Of a stretch of DNA of 64,000 nt, positions 5,830 to 11,555 are shown one piece after another. A program made the position numbers and the translations under genes. The notes below the pieces were generated by a model. That model was not told where the DNA came from. It did no database searches and was given only the letters and a program-made list of their open reading frames with translations. Positions within the stretch are counted from its first letter, which is position 1. Every line of letters begins with the position of its first letter. The stretch is taken from the NCBI RefSeq assembly GCF_003334385.1, contig NZ_QOWN01000019.1, one strand, 5' to 3'. This DNA is from Escherichia coli (GTDB lineage Bacteria > Pseudomonadota > Gammaproteobacteria > Enterobacterales > Enterobacteriaceae).

Positions 5830-7368
5830 ATGACCAATAATCCCCCTTCAGCACAGATTAAGCCCGGCGAGTATGGTTTCCCCCTCAAGTTAAAAGCCCG
5901 CTATGACAACTTTATTGGCGGCGAATGGGTAGCCCCTGCCGACGGCGAGTATTACCAGAATCTGACGCCGGTGACCGGGCAGCTGCTGTGCGAAGTGGCG
6001 TCTTCGGGCAAACGAGACATCGATCTGGCGCTGGATGCTGCGCACAAAGTGAAAGATAAATGGGCGCACACCTCGGTGCAGGATCGTGCGGCGATTCTGT
6101 TTAAGATTGCCGATCGAATGGAACAAAACCTCGAGCTGTTAGCGACAGCTGAAACCTGGGATAACGGCAAACCCATTCGCGAAACCAGTGCTGCGGATGT
6201 ACCGCTGGCGATTGACCATTTCCGCTATTTCGCCTCGTGTATTCGGGCGCAGGAAGGTGGGATCAGTGAAGTTGATAGCGAAACCGTGGCCTATCATTTC
6301 CATGAACCGTTAGGCGTGGTGGGGCAGATTATCCCGTGGAACTTCCCGCTGCTGATGGCGAGCTGGAAAATGGCTCCCGCGCTGGCGGCGGGCAACTGTG
6401 TGGTGCTGAAACCCGCACGTCTTACCCCGCTTTCTGTACTGCTGCTAATGGAAATTGTCGGTGATTTACTGCCGCCGGGCGTGGTGAACGTGGTCAATGG
6501 CGCAGGTGGGGTAATTGGCGAATATCTGGCGACCTCGAAACGCATCGCCAAAGTGGCGTTTACCGGCTCAACGGAAGTGGGCCAACAAATTATGCAATAC
6601 GCAACGCAAAACATTATTCCGGTGACGCTGGAGTTGGGCGGTAAGTCGCCAAATATCTTCTTTGCTGATGTGATGGATGAAGAAGATGCCTTTTTCGATA
6701 AAGCGCTGGAAGGCTTTGCACTGTTTGCCTTTAACCAGGGCGAAGTTTGCACCTGTCCGAGTCGTGCTTTAGTGCAGGAATCTATCTACGAACGCTTTAT
6801 GGAACGCGCCATCCGCCGTGTCGAAAGCATTCGTAGCGGTAACCCGCTCGACAGCGTGACGCAAATGGGCGCGCAGGTTTCTCACGGGCAACTGGAAACC
6901 ATCCTCAACTACATTGATATCGGTAAAAAAGAGGGCGCTGACGTGCTCACAGGCGGGCGGCGCAAGCTGCTGGAAGGTGAACTGAAAGACGGCTACTACC
7001 TCGAACCGACGATTCTGTTTGGTCAGAACAATATGCGGGTGTTCCAGGAGGAGATTTTTGGCCCGGTGCTGGCGGTGACCACCTTCAAAACGATGGAAGA
7101 AGCGCTGGAGCTGGCGAACGATACGCAATATGGCCTGGGCGCGGGCGTCTGGAGCCGCAACGGTAATCTGGCCTATAAGATGGGGCGCGGCATACAGGCT
7201 GGGCGCGTGTGGACCAACTGTTATCACGCTTACCCGGCACATGCGGCGTTTGGTGGCTACAAACAATCAGGTATCGGTCGCGAAACCCACAAGATGATGC
7301 TGGAGCATTACCAGCAAACCAAGTGCCTGCTGGTGAGCTACTCGGATAAACCGTTGGGGCTGTTCTGA
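5830..7368 (+). CDS. aldB: aldehyde dehydrogenase B, 512 aa
   Basis: Native start [17 protein letters not shown] at ATG 5830 (track ORF over-extended from 5692); ALDH motifs ELGGKSP and FNQGEVCTC. Confidence 0.93.
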
Positions 7369-7399
7369 TATAAGAAGCTGGTCGCATTGGGTATTCATT

Positions 7400-7490
7400 G
7401 CCTGATGCGACGCTTACGCGTCTTATCATGCCTACGGGAACCTGACCGTAGGCCGGATAAGGCGTACACGCCGCATCCGGCATAAACAAA
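7400..7490. repeat. REP/BIME cluster downstream of aldB
   Basis: Palindromic units gcctgatgcgacgcttacgcgtcttatcatgcctac and gtaggccggataaggcgt...cgccgcatccggc. Confidence 0.75.
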
Positions 7491-7912
7491 GCGCACGTTG
7501 TTACAATTTACGTTTTAAACCTACGTGCGCAATAACCCAGACTACGCCAACAGAAGTACGTTTCTGGGGCGTGTTTTGTCAGGAGTTTAATCTCGCGTTT
7601 CGATGGTGAGCGGGCGAACCAGGCCGTAAATCACCATTGGTGATCCGAGGCCAATCAGCAATAAACGGTAGATAATTGAAGGTTTAATACGCTTAATCTG
7701 TACTGTGGATGTTTTACTGGAGTTATTCATTAGTTTGGCCAATAGTTCCACTATTTCAATATGATAAACCTCGTCCTGTTGAAAAACCAGACAGCACATT
7801 TAAGAAAGTATATAAAAAACAATATGTCGTTATATAAATAAGGAAATTGCACTGCATCATGGCATTTCATAATATGCGTTAATTGTTCTTTTTTATATTC
7901 TTTGAGGGAAAT

Positions 7913-8236
7913 ATGTTCCTGGACTATTTTGCACTGGGAGTGCTTATTTTTGTATTTCTGGTGATCTTCTATGGGATCATTATTTTACATGATATTCCCT
8001 ACCTGATTGCCAAAAAACGTAATCATCCTCATGCCGACGCCATTCATGTTGCTGGTTGGGTGAGTCTTTTTACGTTACATGTTATCTGGCCGTTTTTGTG
8101 GATTTGGGCCACGCTTTACCGCCCGGAGCGGGGATGGGGAATGCAAAGCCATGATTCATCCGTTATGCAACTGCAACAGCGCATTGCCGGGCTGGAGAAA
8201 CAGCTCGCCGACATCAAATCCTCTTCTGCCGAGTAA
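7913..8236 (+). CDS. yiaW: small inner-membrane protein, DUF3302 family (107 aa)
   Basis: ATG 7913 preceded by GAGGGA; two hydrophobic helices; AT-rich. Confidence 0.85.
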
Positions 8237-8241
8237 TACTT

Positions 8242-9378
8242 ATGGATTTACTGATTATTTTGACCTATGTGGCTTTTGCATGGGCAATGTTTAAGATCTT
8301 CAAAATTCCCGTAAATAAATGGACCATTCCCACAGCGGCCCTGGGTGGAATATTTATTGTCAGCGGTCTAATTCTGTTAATGAACTATAACCATCCGTAT
8401 ACCTTTAAAGCGCAAAAAGCGGTTATTTCTATTCCTGTTGTCCCACAGGTGACTGGTGTGGTGATTGAAGTGACGGATAAGAAAAATACGCTGATTAAAA
8501 AAGGTGAGGTGCTATTTCGACTGGACCCGACGCGTTATCAGGCGCGGGTGGATCGGCTGATGGCGGATATCGTTACCGCAGAACATAAACAGCGGGCGTT
8601 GGGCGCAGAGTTAGATGAGATGGCGGCGAATACTCAGCAGGCAAAGGCCACGCGGGATAAATTCGCTAAAGAGTATCAGCGTTACGCACGTGGCAGCCAG
8701 GCGAAAGTAAACCCGTTTTCAGAACGCGATATCGATGTGGCGCGGCAAAATTATCTGGCGCAGGAAGCCTCCGTGAAGTCATCGGCGGCGGAACAAAAAC
8801 AGATCCAGAGCCAGCTGGATAGCCTGGTGTTGGGTGAACATTCTCAAATCGCCAGCCTGAAAGCACAGCTCGCGGAAGCAAAATATAACCTTGAGCAGAC
8901 GATAGTGCGTGCGCCGAGCGATGGTTATGTGACCCAGGTACTGATTCGTCCGGGTACCTATGCCGCGTCGCTGCCGCTACGTCCGGTGATGGTGTTTATA
9001 CCCGATCAGAAACGACAAATCGTGGCGCAGTTCCGTCAGAACTCCTTGCTGCGACTGGCTCCTGGCGACGATGCGGAAGTGGTGTTTAATGCTCTGCCAG
9101 GTAAGGTATTCAGCGGTAAGCTGGCAGCCATTAGTCCAGCCGTTCCCGGCGGAGCTTATCAGTCGACCGGCACCTTACAGACGTTAAACACAGCGCCGGG
9201 TTCAGATGGCGTTATCGCGACCATTGAACTGGATGAGCACACTGATTTGAGCGCTTTACCAGACGGTATTTACGCCCAGGTGGCGGTTTACTCTGATCAT
9301 TTCAGCCATGTCTCGGTGATGCGCAAAGTGCTATTACGCATGACCAGCTGGGTGCATTACCTTTATCTCGATCATTAA
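8242..9378 (+). CDS. yiaV: HlyD/EmrA-like membrane fusion protein (378 aa)
   Basis: N-terminal TM helix, coiled-coil region, 5 nt after yiaW stop. Confidence 0.88.
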
Positions 9379-10345
9379 TCTTCGCTTTCCGCCGCTTGTT
9401 CAGGCCGCAGTTGCTGCGACTGAGCAAGCTGGTGGCGAATTTCACGCAGCATTTCATCCAGCACATACTGGACCCGCCAGGGCTGGTATTCCCGTTTACG
9501 GAAGATAGCCACCAGATCCAGCCACCATTCATAGGGTTGCTGAAAGCAGGGCACCAGCGTGCCGTCTTGCAGGTCGCTCTGCACACTTTTGTCTGGCGCA
9601 AACACAATCCCCAGGTGATTTCGTGCCAGCTCCAGCGCAGATTGCGTGTTGTCGCAAACGTAATTTCCCTTCACGCGATAATCCCGCACCTCTTTACTCC
9701 CGGCGACGTTGAAGCGCCAGATATTCGCGTCGTCGATCATCATCGAGTCGATCAAAATACAGGAGTGATGTTCGAGTTCGTCAGGACGGCTAATGGGATG
9801 TTTCTCAAGATAGCGCTGGCTGGCATAAGCGGTTACGGCATATTGGGTAATAAAACTGGCAACCAGCGATTCATTGGTGGAGCGTAGCTGATTAAAACAT
9901 CACAATCATCAGGAAATTCGACGCCTTCATAAAAGGCATTACGCTCAAGATTGCAGGTTTTTAGCGATAAGGTGATATCACCGATATCTTTAATTTTATC
10001 GATTACATGTTTGGATAAATAGGTAATTATGCCGGTTGGGGCGTAGATGGTGACCCGACCACGTTTCTCATGTTTATAATCTGCAATAAAATTATTAAGT
10101 TGCTCGTTTCTGTCCAGCATGTCGTTGATGTACGGTAACAGCGCGGTGCCAAAAGGTGTGAGCATCAGCTGCCGGGTGGTTCGGTCAAAGACTTTTAAAC
10201 CCACTTTTGATTCAAAATCAGCAAGATATTTGCTGACGTTGGCCTGTGCGATGCCAAGTACAGTCGCGGCATGGCTGATATTTTCACTGGCAGCGATTAC
10301 CGAGATAATTTTTAACTCCCGGTACTTAAGTTGTAATTTTGTCAT
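9375..10345 (-). pseudogene. yiaU: LysR-family transcriptional regulator, apparently frameshifted (N-terminal 170-codon ORF 9833..10345 and C-terminal ORF ending 9375 are in different frames)
   Basis: HTH-containing ORF stops at TAA 9833-9835; remainder continues in the -1 frame, open from 9899 to stop 9375-9377. Confidence 0.7.
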
Positions 10346-10468
10346 CGCAACAGCCCAATTATATATAATTTTATATATTACTATATAAATATGAATCTTG
10401 CACCGGAGAAATTGTAAGCATTATTATGCCGACTCTTTTTTATCTTATTTTAAAATGGAATACCGGAC

Positions 10469-11209
10469 ATGTTAATTAATCGCAATATTGTGGCGTTATT
10501 TGCGTTGCCTTTTATGGCAAGCGCAACTGCTTCTGAATTATCCATTGGTGCTGGTGCGGCTTATAATGAATCGCCTTATCGCGGTTATAATGAAAATACG
10601 AAGGCAATTCCGCTGATTAGTTATGAAGGTGATACTTTTTATGTTCGTCAGACCACGTTAGGTTTTATTCTGTCGCAAAGTGAAAAAAATGAACTTAGCC
10701 TGACCGCATCCTGGATGCCGCTGGAATTTGACCCTACCGATAATGACGATTATGCCATGCAACAGCTTGATAAGCGTGATAGTACGGCTATGGCGGGGGT
10801 TGCCTGGTATCACCACGAGCGTTGGGGAACCGTGAAAGCCTCTGCAGCTGCGGACGTTCTGGATAACAGCAACGGCTGGGTGGGGGAGCTATCGGTATTC
10901 CACAAAATGCAGATAGGTCGTCTGTCGCTGACACCTGCGCTGGGCGTTCTCTATTATGACGAGAATTTCAGTGACTATTACTATGGCATTTCAGAGAGTG
11001 AGTCCCGTCGTAGCGGTCTGGCAAGTTATTCCGCGCAGGATGCCTGGGTGCCCTATGTCAGCCTGACGGCAAAATACCCGATAGGAGAGCACGTCGTATT
11101 GATGGCGAGCGCAGGATACAGCGAGCTGCCGGAAGAGATTACCGACAGCCCGATGATTGATCGTAATGAGAGTTTTACCTTTGTCACCGGGGTGAGCTGG
11201 CGTTTTTAA
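10469..11209 (+). CDS. yiaT: MipA/OmpV-family outer membrane protein (246 aa)
   Basis: Signal peptide, beta-barrel-like alternating pattern, C-terminal aromatic residue (…SWRF). Confidence 0.88.
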   Translation: MLINRNIVALFALPFMASATASELSIGAGAAYNESPYRGYNENTKAIPLISYEGDTFYVRQTTLGFILSQSEKNELSLTASWMPLEFDPTDNDDYAMQQLDKRDSTAMAGVAWYHHERWGTVKASAAADVLDNSNGWVGELSVFHKMQIGRLSLTPALGVLYYDENFSDYYYGISESESRRSGLASYSAQDAWVPYVSLTAKYPIGEHVVLMASAGYSELPEEITDSPMIDRNESFTFVTGVSWRF

Positions 11210-11555
11210 TTCACCGGTGGATGTCGGTGCGGCTGGTGCTCCGTCGTAATGCCACAAAGGTTGTTGCTCTGGATTGCTCTGTTCATACCGGGAACCTGGC
11301 GTCTGAATCAGGATCTTATGGCTGAACAATCCCTTGCCTTCAAATGTCGTAAATGGCGCATCGGCGGGCAGCAACAGGTTATGCAGTGACTCGACGTTGT
11401 CGGCCTGCTCCATGCAATACGGTTTAATGACGTTGGCTATTTCCGGCAGATTTTTCAGAAACATACTGGTTTAACGCCAGCAGCGTGGAAGCGGCGTTAC
11501 AGCAAGGAACATATCAATTCGTAGTGCCGGGGCGATGAAGCCCCGGCGTGAGGGA

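What the first reader, a model, noticed from the sequence alone, without database searches (positions are those of the whole stretch)
7913..11209. Under-characterised envelope module: yiaW (DUF3302) + yiaV (HlyD-like MFP) + LysR yiaU + outer-membrane yiaT
yiaV has the architecture of a membrane fusion protein (N-terminal TM helix, long coiled coil, barrel-type domains) but has no ABC, MFS or RND pump gene next to it. Its only operon partner is a 107-aa two-helix DUF3302 protein starting 5 nt upstream. A LysR regulator and a MipA/OmpV-like outer membrane protein lie immediately adjacent and divergent. yiaW is visibly AT-richer than its neighbours. An MFP-like protein paired with a tiny membrane protein instead of a transporter is not explained by known efflux or secretion paradigms; I recall a paralogous yibH/yibI pair elsewhere in E. 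coli. This is the most plausible place in the window for unassigned biology.
Basis: partly seen in the sequence, partly recalled or inferred. Interest (0 to 1): 0.5.

Follow-up and report, generated by a model that had tools for sequence, protein, structure and literature searches.

The report
Pump-less DUF3302–adaptor envelope system (yiaWV)
yiaW and yiaV are a conserved two-gene unit, a tiny membrane protein plus an EmrA-like periplasmic adaptor, that in other phyla sits next to its own TolC-like channel gene but never next to a pump. This suggests an uncharacterised kind of envelope-spanning conduit; the neighbouring yiaU and yiaT are a separate, already described regulator–target pair.

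Summary
In this window yiaU is split by a rare 4-bp deletion. The real unit is the yiaW-yiaV pair. In about 100 loci from Gamma-, Alpha- and Betaproteobacteria and Bacteroidota, a DUF3302 gene is followed within -4 to +21 nt by a dedicated adaptor. This holds in unrelated contexts, and no ABC, RND, MFS or FUSC pump is adjacent. In eight clusters a TolC/NodT-type outer-membrane factor gene directly flanks the pair. These adaptors share traits missing from the one AaeA-like adaptor compared here: two N-terminal TM helices, an [11 protein letters not shown] loop and a conserved C-terminal helix. N-terminal extensions in homologues place the invariant His-Pro loop of DUF3302 in the cytoplasm. Best reading: a transporter-less tripartite assembly (OMF/TolC, YiaV, YiaW) with DUF3302 as the inner-membrane subunit. 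Substrate and energy source are unknown. yiaU-yiaT is a separate module (YiaU = LpsR, published) and lies next to yiaWV only in Escherichia, Citrobacter and Pseudocitrobacter. yibIH is the core paralogue (5407 of 5426 E. coli genomes); yiaWV is accessory (70%). No paper in the library gives a mechanism. W-V contact is inferred, not shown.

The parts
7913..8236 (+). yiaW: 107-aa DUF3302 protein. Predicted TM hairpin whose inter-helix loop carries the invariant His38-Pro39, followed by a C-terminal amphipathic helix (residues ~83-101).
   Evidence: ORF; Pfam PF11742 E 2.7e-43; invariant columns; AF2 secondary structure; topology inferred from N-terminal extensions of homologues.
8242..9378 (+). 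yiaV: 378-aa EmrA-like periplasmic adaptor (MFP). Two N-terminal TM helices (residues 1-19 and 28-50) joined by the loop FKIPVNKW, a ~122-residue alpha-hairpin, lipoyl and beta-barrel domains, and a conserved C-terminal helix (355-371).
   Evidence: Pfam; NCBIfam best hits MdtN and EmrA/EmrK at 112 bits, far below their cut-offs; Foldseek best match EmrA in EmrAB-TolC 8zal/8zar, E 3.5e-20; AF2; conservation.
7731..7912 (.). AT-rich region upstream of yiaW (about 33-35% GC); presumed promoter region of the yiaWV operon, not mapped.
   Evidence: Composition. The only promoter-like match here is weak: 7736-7765, 9 of 12, no better than the shuffled expectation.
9375..10345 (-). yiaU (lpsR), LysR-type regulator. 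It is a separate module, and in this window it is frameshifted by a 4-bp deletion after 9873. It converges on yiaV and overlaps it by 4 nt.
   Evidence: PMC9068703; listed as a yiaU-yiaV excludon candidate in PMC12288877.
10469..11209 (+). yiaT, a MipA/OmpV-family outer-membrane protein and the divergent target of YiaU. Not part of the conserved DUF3302-adaptor unit.
   Evidence: Pfam MipA E 4.9e-52; NCBIfam OmpV 94.6 bits, below cut-off; yiaT rises 2.8 log2 in a yiaU mutant (PMC9068703); linkage pattern.

Best explanation
YiaW and YiaV are the inner-membrane and periplasmic parts of a self-contained tripartite envelope assembly that has no transporter. YiaV is an EmrA-type adaptor that, by analogy with EmrA, would form a periplasmic tube and dock onto TolC in E. 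coli, or onto a cluster-encoded NodT/TolC-type channel in other phyla. Where a pump would normally sit, the membrane base would be built from the adaptor's own N-terminal TM hairpin together with the two-helix DUF3302 protein. The strongly conserved loops of both proteins (RNHPH in YiaW, FKIPVNKW in YiaV) would face the cytoplasm. The most likely activity is export or release of a small solute, without ATP, through the adaptor tube and the outer-membrane channel; the substrate is unknown. SHOWN: domain identities, the EmrA-like predicted fold, near-absolute gene coupling, OMF genes in eight clusters, absence of pump genes, and adaptor features specific to this subfamily. INFERRED: physical W-V contact, stoichiometry, TolC docking in E. 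coli, membrane topology, and any transport activity.
For: (1) Coupling. 74 of 77 enterobacterial DUF3302 ORFs have a ~378-aa adaptor gene 2-21 nt downstream. Two exceptions are contig ends; in the third (L041) the adaptor ORF is present but overlaps the DUF3302 ORF call. The same pair, with gaps of -4 to +12 nt, occurs in Vibrio, Photobacterium, Pseudoalteromonas, Aeromonas, Phyllobacterium, Rhizobium, Microvirga, Eleftheria, Persicobacter, Reichenbachiella and several metagenomic lineages, in unrelated contexts. (2) Reverse test. Every plasmid-collection YiaV hit listed at 37% identity or more whose DUF3302 hit or annotation is also listed lies beside it. (3) An OMF gene directly flanks the pair in L082, L098, L101, L102, L103, L104, L105 and L107 (PF02321 or a TolC annotation; TIGR01845 at 209 and 176 bits for the two tested). 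(4) No ABC, RND, MFS or FUSC gene is co-oriented next to any pair. L102 carries a complete FUSC-OEP-DUF1656-adaptor cluster 2 kb away with its own adaptor. (5) The paired adaptors share a two-helix N-terminus, the [11 protein letters not shown] loop, an NYNHPY motif and the C-terminal helix RKvLlRMxSW. The AaeA-like adaptor of L102 has none of these. (6) The fold matches EmrA from the EmrAB-TolC complex, which has six EmrA chains per entry. (7) The DUF3302 core is very strongly conserved (H38, P39, W59, P60 and W65 are invariant) across 881 clusters at 50% identity. (8) All named hosts are diderm bacteria.
Against: There is no direct evidence of W-V binding or of TolC docking. AF2 of the membrane-core mini-construct gave pTM 0.33 and mean pLDDT 61.5, so it does not support a 1:1 bundle, and no coordinates or PAE were available for the full fusion. 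A two-helix protein plus adaptor TM helices has no known energy-coupling fold. In L102 and L104 a Na+/H+-exchanger-family gene follows the OMF gene, and in Rhizobium a SulP gene follows the pair; these could be lineage-specific partners. Published phenotypes are mild and non-specific. yiaWV is missing from 30% of E. coli genomes. The OMF-linked sample is small (8 clusters) and most of it comes from one clade.
Confidence: 0.5

Rival explanations
1. YiaV is an ordinary adaptor that serves a pump encoded elsewhere in the genome (MFS, ABC or FUSC type). YiaW is a small accessory subunit, comparable to AcrZ or AaeX, and not a stand-in for the pump.
For: YiaV's nearest curated families and its best structural match are pump adaptors: MdtN and EmrA/EmrK at 112 bits, and EmrA by Foldseek. 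Small accessory proteins of efflux pumps are known (AcrZ appears in the AcrABZ-TolC entries). A Na+/H+-exchanger-family gene or a SulP gene follows some clusters. The nearest outgroup adaptors pair with DUF2955/FUSC_2-like membrane proteins.
Against: No pump gene is adjacent in about 100 loci, including eight clusters that do bring their own OMF. The pair moves as an autonomous unit through unrelated contexts. The adaptor has its own conserved extra TM helix and cytoplasmic loop, conserved together with DUF3302. Where a FUSC pump lies nearby (L102) it has its own adaptor and its own small protein.
Confidence: 0.2
2. The pair is not a transport system. It is an envelope tether, a sensor, or a modulator of TolC occupancy: a membrane-anchored adaptor that spans the periplasm, with YiaW as its anchor or signal-receiving subunit.
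For: No energy-coupling module is present. The reported phenotypes relate to the envelope but not to efflux. A yiaW deletion raises transformation efficiency (cited in PMC12844161). A yibI deletion lowers fitness in urine and adhesion (PMC5404293). A Klebsiella yibH deletion lowers plaquing by evolved phages (PMC11796411). Lipid- and envelope-related genes recur nearby: patatin, Mla-type, LolA-like DUF2092 and YSC84.
Against: The cluster-encoded partners are efflux-type OMFs (TIGR01845), as in export systems. The adaptor keeps the full hairpin, lipoyl and barrel architecture of channel-forming adaptors. Hairpin length falls into discrete classes (60, 88 and about 122 residues), as expected for a docking duct.
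Confidence: 0.2
3. One reading: yiaW, yiaV, yiaU and yiaT form one functional envelope module, with YiaU regulating yiaWV and YiaT as the outer-membrane partner.
For: In E. coli the four genes are present or absent as one block. All true yiaWV orthologues (Escherichia, Citrobacter, Pseudocitrobacter) keep yiaU-yiaT next door. The yiaU and yiaV transcripts overlap (PMC12288877). A MipA/OmpV gene lies 700 nt downstream of an outgroup adaptor-DUF2955 cluster in Caballeronia.
Against: The core paralogue yibIH and every non-enterobacterial pair lack a LysR/MipA neighbour pair. aldB-yiaU adjacency without yiaWV in L058 and L073 shows that yiaU predates the insertion or is independent of it. ChIP-exo and RNA-seq of YiaU report yiaT and waa as targets, not yiaVW. 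Where an outer-membrane partner is encoded, it is a TolC/NodT-type OMF, not MipA.
Confidence: 0.07

Closest known systems
EmrAB-TolC (MFS-type tripartite efflux pump; PDB 8zal/8zar)
   Same: YiaV's predicted fold matches EmrA best (Foldseek E 3.5e-20, TM 0.71; sequence E 7.5e-12). Both are TM-anchored adaptors with a long alpha-hairpin and lipoyl and beta-barrel domains. OMF genes occur in related clusters.
   Different: There is no EmrB-like MFS pump. YiaV scores 112 bits against the EmrA/EmrK cut-off of 390.8. It has a second N-terminal TM helix and a conserved C-terminal helix, and its obligate partner is a 2-TM DUF3302 protein.
AaeXAB / FUSC-type systems (small DUF1656 protein + adaptor + FUSC pump; an example with an OMF is in L102)
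   Same: The gene order is the same: a small two-TM protein gene sits immediately upstream of an AaeA/EmrA-branch adaptor gene, sometimes with an OMF gene.
   Different: DUF3302 shows no detectable relation to DUF1656 (hhalign probability 0.6%). There is no FUSC protein. The AaeA model scores 63 bits against a cut-off of 400. The L102 AaeA-like adaptor has one TM helix and no conserved C-terminal helix.
Adaptor + DUF2955 (FUSC_2-like) pairs in Agrobacterium and Caballeronia
   Same: They are among the nearest outgroup of YiaV by sequence (25-32% identity over about 90% of its length), and are two-gene adaptor-plus-membrane-protein units.
   Different: The partner is a ~340-aa multi-TM protein encoded downstream (DUF2955 with a weak FUSC_2 match), not a 2-TM protein encoded upstream. 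These adaptors lack the YiaV-type N-terminal hairpin.
YiaU (LpsR)-yiaT divergent regulator-target pair
   Same: These are the same genes as in the window.
   Different: They are a separate module from yiaWV, and in this window yiaU is frameshifted.

Membership tests
Membrane fusion protein / periplasmic adaptor (TC 8.A.1) - YiaV | Lipoyl (barrel-sandwich) domain interrupted by an alpha-helical hairpin, plus a beta-barrel domain | tested here: met
   Pfam CusB_dom_1 and HlyD_D23; AF2 secondary structure; Foldseek to EmrA, MacA, AcrA and MexA at probability 1.00. TCDB lists yiaV as 8.A.1.1.4, uncharacterized (PMC10971958).
Membrane fusion protein / periplasmic adaptor (TC 8.A.1) - YiaV | Encoded with, and working with, an inner-membrane transporter (ABC, MFS, RND or FUSC) | tested here: not met
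   No such gene lies next to the pair in about 100 loci. A partner acting in trans cannot be excluded.
Membrane fusion protein / periplasmic adaptor (TC 8.A.1) - YiaV | Docks an outer-membrane factor (TolC family) | tested here: inconclusive
   OMF genes flank the pair in 8 clusters. Physical docking, and TolC use in E. coli, cannot be tested with these tools.
EmrA/EmrK subfamily (TIGR00998) and MdtN (NF007785) | Score above the curated NCBIfam cut-off | tested here: not met
   112 bits against 390.8, and 112.2 against 376.
DUF3302 (PF11742) - YiaW | Match to the Pfam model over its full length | tested here: met
   E 2.7e-43, model positions 1-76 of 77.
AaeXAB-type (DUF1656 + AaeA + FUSC) | Small subunit homologous to DUF1656; FUSC pump present; adaptor is an AaeA equivalog | tested here: not met
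   hhalign probability 0.6%; no FUSC gene nearby; AaeA model 63.4 bits against a cut-off of 400.
Known anti-phage defence systems (PADLOC) | Match to any PADLOC protein model | tested here: not met
   No families matched YiaW, YiaV or YiaT.
MipA/OmpV family - YiaT | Match to Pfam MipA | tested here: met
   PF06629, E 4.9e-52, full length.
LysR-type regulator with a divergent target - YiaU/yiaT | Intact HTH plus LysR substrate-binding domain; regulates the divergent gene | tested here: inconclusive
   Regulation of yiaT is published. In this window the reading frame is broken after the N-terminal 170 aa, so the regulator is probably non-functional here.

The most novel reading that the evidence does not exclude
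DUF3302 together with the adaptor's own TM hairpin forms a previously unrecognised class of inner-membrane translocator. This would be an oligomeric ring (perhaps 6 + 6 subunits, about 24 TM helices) that is gated or energised through the invariant cytoplasmic His-Pro loop. With an OMF it would make the simplest known tripartite exporter, widespread in diderm bacteria and present in E. coli in two copies (yibIH core, yiaWV accessory).
Probability: 0.25. Interest if true: 0.8.

Novelty: new variant of a known kind. Interest (0 to 1): 0.6.

Why it matters
Tripartite efflux and secretion systems are understood as pump + adaptor + outer-membrane channel. A widespread family in which the pump position is held by a 2-TM protein and the adaptor's own TM helices would either define a new minimal translocator or reveal a non-transport role for adaptor-OMF assemblies. 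It involves two y-gene pairs in E. coli K-12, so it can be tested directly with standard genetics and cryo-EM. The core paralogue yibIH already has reported links to fitness in urine and to phage plaquing. The analysis also explains why single knock-outs look silent: the two paralogous pairs are 76-77% identical, and nearly identical in the N-terminal membrane region and C-terminal helix of the adaptor.

Tried and rejected
(1) Genome-contig scan with a DUF3302 alignment. It returned only Enterobacterales, because the best 80 are ranked by similarity. It was useful for the coupling statistics but not for diversity, which came from contig look-ups and the plasmid collection.

(2) AF2 of the fused YiaW-linker-YiaV. 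It gave secondary structure and an EmrA-like fold, but no coordinates or PAE are exposed, so W-V contacts could not be read.

(3) AF2 of a membrane-core mini-construct. pTM 0.33 is inconclusive for a 1:1 bundle. The YiaW hairpin pLDDT was unchanged (77-83). The YiaV C-terminal helix fell from about 85 to about 50 without its periplasmic domain, which suggests it packs on YiaV itself in the full model.

(4) Paralogue-concordance test of W against V. It was uninformative, because W scores are dominated by the variable tail. It did show that the single-copy pairs in Serratia, Pantoea, Buttiauxella and others are not clean yiaWV orthologues.

(5) Homology of DUF3302 to DUF1656/AaeX: rejected.

(6) A recurrent MipA link. 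The Ruegeria upstream protein is not MipA-like, and only the Caballeronia neighbour is. I treat this as an unproven coincidence.

(7) Anti-phage defence: no PADLOC match.

(8) Foreign origin suggested by AT-richness: rejected.

(9) The profile hits of DUF3302 to rhodopsin chloride pumps in the PDB (E 0.0024) are judged spurious TM similarity.

(10) Promoter and terminator scans were no better than shuffles for promoters.

(11) The metagenome-wide scan was not run, on cost grounds.
Full report
WHAT IS THERE. The window stretch 7600-11400 is 99.9% identical to E. coli K-12 MG1655. RefSeq annotates it there as yiaW (DUF3302), yiaV (HlyD family), yiaU (LysR family) and yiaT (MipA/OmpV), flanked by aldB and araD/sgbE. 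Pfam confirms DUF3302 for YiaW (E 2.7e-43), MFP domains for YiaV and MipA for YiaT.

There is one difference from K-12. The window lacks 4 bp after position 9873 and carries one SNP at 10073. The deletion splits yiaU into a 170-aa N-terminal ORF and a 126-aa C-terminal ORF. Full-length matches to a 140-bp probe across the site in other complete E. coli genomes are 97.2% identical, as expected if they carry the 4 bp, and only 3 of 3775 matches reach 99%. So this is strain-specific or a sequencing error.

yiaW has 46.6% GC, against 50.7% for yiaV. The TM-coding first 150 nt of yiaV are 38% GC. The AT bias therefore comes from hydrophobic codons and is not a sign of foreign DNA.

THE CONSERVED UNIT IS THE PAIR, NOT THE FOUR GENES. 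DUF3302 is a large family, with 881 clusters at 50% identity at E <= 1e-3. Its core is very strongly conserved, roughly [42 protein letters not shown]..YrPxRGWG.

In 76 enterobacterial loci, 74 of 77 DUF3302 ORFs are followed within 2-21 nt by a ~378-aa YiaV homologue. Two exceptions are contig ends. In the third (L041) the adaptor ORF is present but overlaps the DUF3302 ORF call. The same pair, often overlapping by 1-4 nt, occurs in these organisms:
- Pseudoalteromonas, Aeromonas, Vibrio and Photobacterium
- Phyllobacterium, Rhizobium and Microvirga
- Eleftheria
- Persicobacter and Reichenbachiella
- several metagenomic lineages

The surrounding genes are unrelated from one lineage to the next. 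Four copies are decayed by IS insertion or loss of the adaptor gene (L091, L095, L098, L099).

The reverse also holds. Among the plasmid/chromid YiaV hits listed at 37% identity or more, every one whose DUF3302 hit or annotation is also listed lies beside it.

By contrast, yiaU and yiaT lie next to the pair only in Escherichia, Citrobacter and Pseudocitrobacter. In Enterobacter and Lelliottia, aldB abuts yiaU with no yiaWV in between (L058, L073). YiaU has been published as LpsR. It regulates the divergent yiaT (yiaT rises 2.8 log2 in the yiaU mutant) and is reported to activate the waa operon. That paper does not mention yiaV or yiaW (PMC9068703).

Within E. coli the four genes do behave as one indel block. 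yiaWV is in 3801 of 5426 complete genomes. Genomes that lack it have aldB next to araD, or next to a GH127 gene with or without hicAB. The paralogous pair yibI-yibH (76% and 77% aa identity) is core, present in 5407 of 5426 genomes. In strains without the rhs insertion it lies only a few kb away, in the order mtlA | yibI-yibH-yibF-selA-selB-yiaY. yiaWV is therefore a young local duplicate.

NO PUMP, BUT AN OUTER-MEMBRANE FACTOR. No locus has an ABC, RND, MFS or FUSC gene co-oriented next to the pair. Eight clusters instead have a TolC/NodT-type OMF gene directly flanking it:
- OEP-DUF3302-MFP in L082, L101 and L105
- DUF3302-MFP-OEP in L098, L102, L103, L104 and L107

The evidence is, and the two OMFs tested scored 209 and 176 bits on TIGR01845. 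These clusters span Bacteroidota, a Betaproteobacterium and unnamed lineages.

L102 provides an internal control. A complete FUSC-OEP-DUF1656-adaptor cluster lies 2 kb from the DUF3302-adaptor-OEP cluster. Its AaeA-like adaptor has a single TM helix and no conserved C-terminal helix.

Some lineages have a different gene immediately downstream: a Na+/H+-exchanger-family gene in L102 and L104, and SulP in the Rhizobium loci L096 and L097. These are lineage-specific.

ANATOMY. YiaV belongs to the EmrA/MdtN branch of adaptors but falls far below every curated cut-off (112 bits against 376-391). An AF2 model of YiaW-(G4S)6-YiaV built from 26 paired sequences has mean pLDDT 76.7. It matches EmrA from the EmrAB-TolC cryo-EM structures best (E 3.5e-20, TM 0.71), and those entries contain six EmrA chains.

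Three features are shared by all DUF3302-partnered adaptors:
- two N-terminal hydrophobic helices (residues 1-19 and 28-50) joined by [11 protein letters not shown], with Pro, Asn and Trp nearly invariant
- an NYNHPY motif at the periplasmic end of the second helix
- a C-terminal helix with the consensus RKvLlRMxSW, containing two invariant Arg

Hairpin length falls into classes: about 120-127 residues in Enterobacterales, Vibrio, Pseudoalteromonas and Rhizobium; 88 in Aeromonas; and 60-66 in the four OMF-linked adaptors in alignment A2 and in four others without an OMF neighbour. The OMF-linked Eleftheria adaptor is long (389 aa).

YiaW is predicted as follows: a long helix 2-35, a turn at RNHPH (residues 36-40; H38 and P39 invariant), a kinked Trp-rich second helix 41-68, and an amphipathic C-terminal helix 83-101.

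Topology is inferred. One set of homologues carries an extra N-terminal TM helix preceded by an Arg/Lys-rich segment. Others carry signal-peptide-like leaders (L098; L107). Each of these additions places the N-terminus of the DUF3302 domain in the periplasm. That puts the His-Pro loop in the cytoplasm and the C-terminal helix in the periplasm. The positive-inside count alone is ambiguous.

MECHANISM. I commit to the following reading. YiaV forms an EmrA-like periplasmic tube that docks TolC, or a cluster-encoded OMF in other phyla. The membrane base, where a pump would normally sit, consists of the adaptor's TM hairpin and the DUF3302 hairpin, with their conserved loops facing the cytoplasm. 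The system exports or releases a small solute without ATP.

Shown: coupling, OMF linkage, absence of pump genes, fold, and subfamily-specific membrane elements. Inferred: contact, stoichiometry, TolC use, topology and transport.

AF2 on a membrane-core mini-construct gave pTM 0.33, which neither supports nor excludes an oligomeric assembly. Recurrent neighbours fall into two loose groups. One is lipid- or envelope-related: patatin-like phospholipase in L080 and L107, Mla-type genes in L080 and L103, LolA-like DUF2092 in L102 and L104, and YSC84 in L106 and L107. The other is ion transport: K+ channel, MscS, Na+/H+ exchanger and SulP genes. These are leads only, because I could not compute a background expectation.

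COMPARISON AND NOVELTY. In operating principle the closest known system is EmrAB-TolC. In gene order it is the AaeX-AaeA-AaeB (FUSC) type. However, DUF3302 is unrelated to DUF1656 (hhalign probability 0.6%), and there is no pump. Among the nearest sequence outgroup of adaptors are those in Agrobacterium and Caballeronia, which pair with DUF2955, a FUSC_2-like membrane protein.

The searchable literature holds no mechanism. What it holds is this:
- IS1 insertions in yiaW arose in macrophage-evolved E. coli, with no phenotype of their own in the assay used (PMC5495878).
- A yiaW deletion gives higher transformation efficiency (cited in PMC12844161).
- yibI is induced in urine, and its deletion gives a competitive index of 0.33 in urine and lower adhesion (PMC5404293).
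- Deleting yibH in Klebsiella lowers plaquing by evolved phages (PMC11796411).
- A GWAS in V. vulnificus flags yiaV (PMC10485832).
- yiaV is listed as TC 8.A.1.1.4, 'uncharacterized' (PMC10971958).

I rate this a new variant of a known kind: a tripartite, efflux-type assembly with a novel minimal inner-membrane component.

VERDICT. Interest 0.6. The architectural explanation has confidence 0.5, and the transport activity itself is less certain.

Noticed in passing
window 9873 (yiaU, minus strand): A 4-bp deletion (TCTT on the + strand of MG1655) and a SNP at 10073 split yiaU/lpsR into two ORFs. Full-length matches to a 140-bp probe in other complete E. coli genomes are 97.2% identical; only 3 of 3775 matches reach 99%. 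If the deletion is real, this strain lacks LpsR and should de-repress yiaT.
   Followed up: partly
window 7358-7531: A cluster of REP/BIME-type repeats downstream of aldB. It gives three sub-threshold matches to Rfam naRNA4 (33-40 bits against a gathering score of 59.5) and matches at many places per genome. It lies at the left edge of the yiaWVUT indel block.
   Followed up: partly
window 7587-7730 (minus strand): RefSeq annotates a 47-aa hypothetical protein with one hydrophobic segment, divergent from yiaW (WP_001066080.1). It is conserved upstream of yiaW only in Escherichia and C. amalonaticus, at 87% and 61% identity.
   Followed up: partly
window ~11231-11524: Two pseudogene remnants lie between yiaT and sgbE/araD; one is a fragment of an AraC-family regulator (RefSeq annotation). 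They mark the right edge of the variable block.
   Followed up: no
window 7369-11555 (aldB to sgbE interval): The whole yiaW-yiaV-yiaU-yiaT block is a presence/absence polymorphism in E. coli. About 30% of complete genomes have aldB next to araD, or next to a GH127 gene with or without hicAB, instead. Some strains carry IS1 or IS903B insertions inside the block (H1, H2, H88).
   Followed up: partly
L080, L103, L102, L104, L106, L107: Lipid- and envelope-related genes recur within a few kb of DUF3302-adaptor pairs in unrelated lineages: patatin-like phospholipase (L080, L107), Mla-type ABC/MlaD (L080, L103), LolA-like DUF2092 (L102, L104) and YSC84-related (L106, L107). No background expectation was computed.
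   Followed up: no
L109 6759-7562; L106 3153-3884: A MipA/OmpV gene (E 8e-6 to YiaT) lies 700 nt downstream of an outgroup adaptor-DUF2955 cluster in Caballeronia. In Ruegeria, a signal-peptide-bearing protein that looks like a beta-barrel but is not MipA-like sits just upstream of a YiaV-like adaptor that has no DUF3302 partner.
   Followed up: partly
L102 8716-9933; L104 8757-9980; L096/L097 ~7586-9320: A Na+/H+-exchanger-family gene directly follows the OMF gene in two related clusters. A SulP-PPK2-AI-2E transporter run follows the pair in Rhizobium. These may be lineage-specific functional partners.
   Followed up: no
L090 7254-9887; L092 6730-9019: In Rhizobium sullae and Microvirga, a short DUF3302 (about 80 aa, with no C-terminal helix) plus a short adaptor is followed by DUF1254/DUF1214 genes, on plasmids among IS elements.
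   Followed up: no
L053 (433-bp contig in a Myxococcus assembly): This contig encodes a DUF3302 protein 71% identical to YiaW, which is typical of Enterobacterales. It is probably contamination of that assembly.
   Followed up: no
window 9375-9378: yiaV and yiaU converge and their coding regions overlap by 4 nt. The pair is listed among the RNA-seq-defined excludon candidates (PMC12288877).
   Followed up: partly
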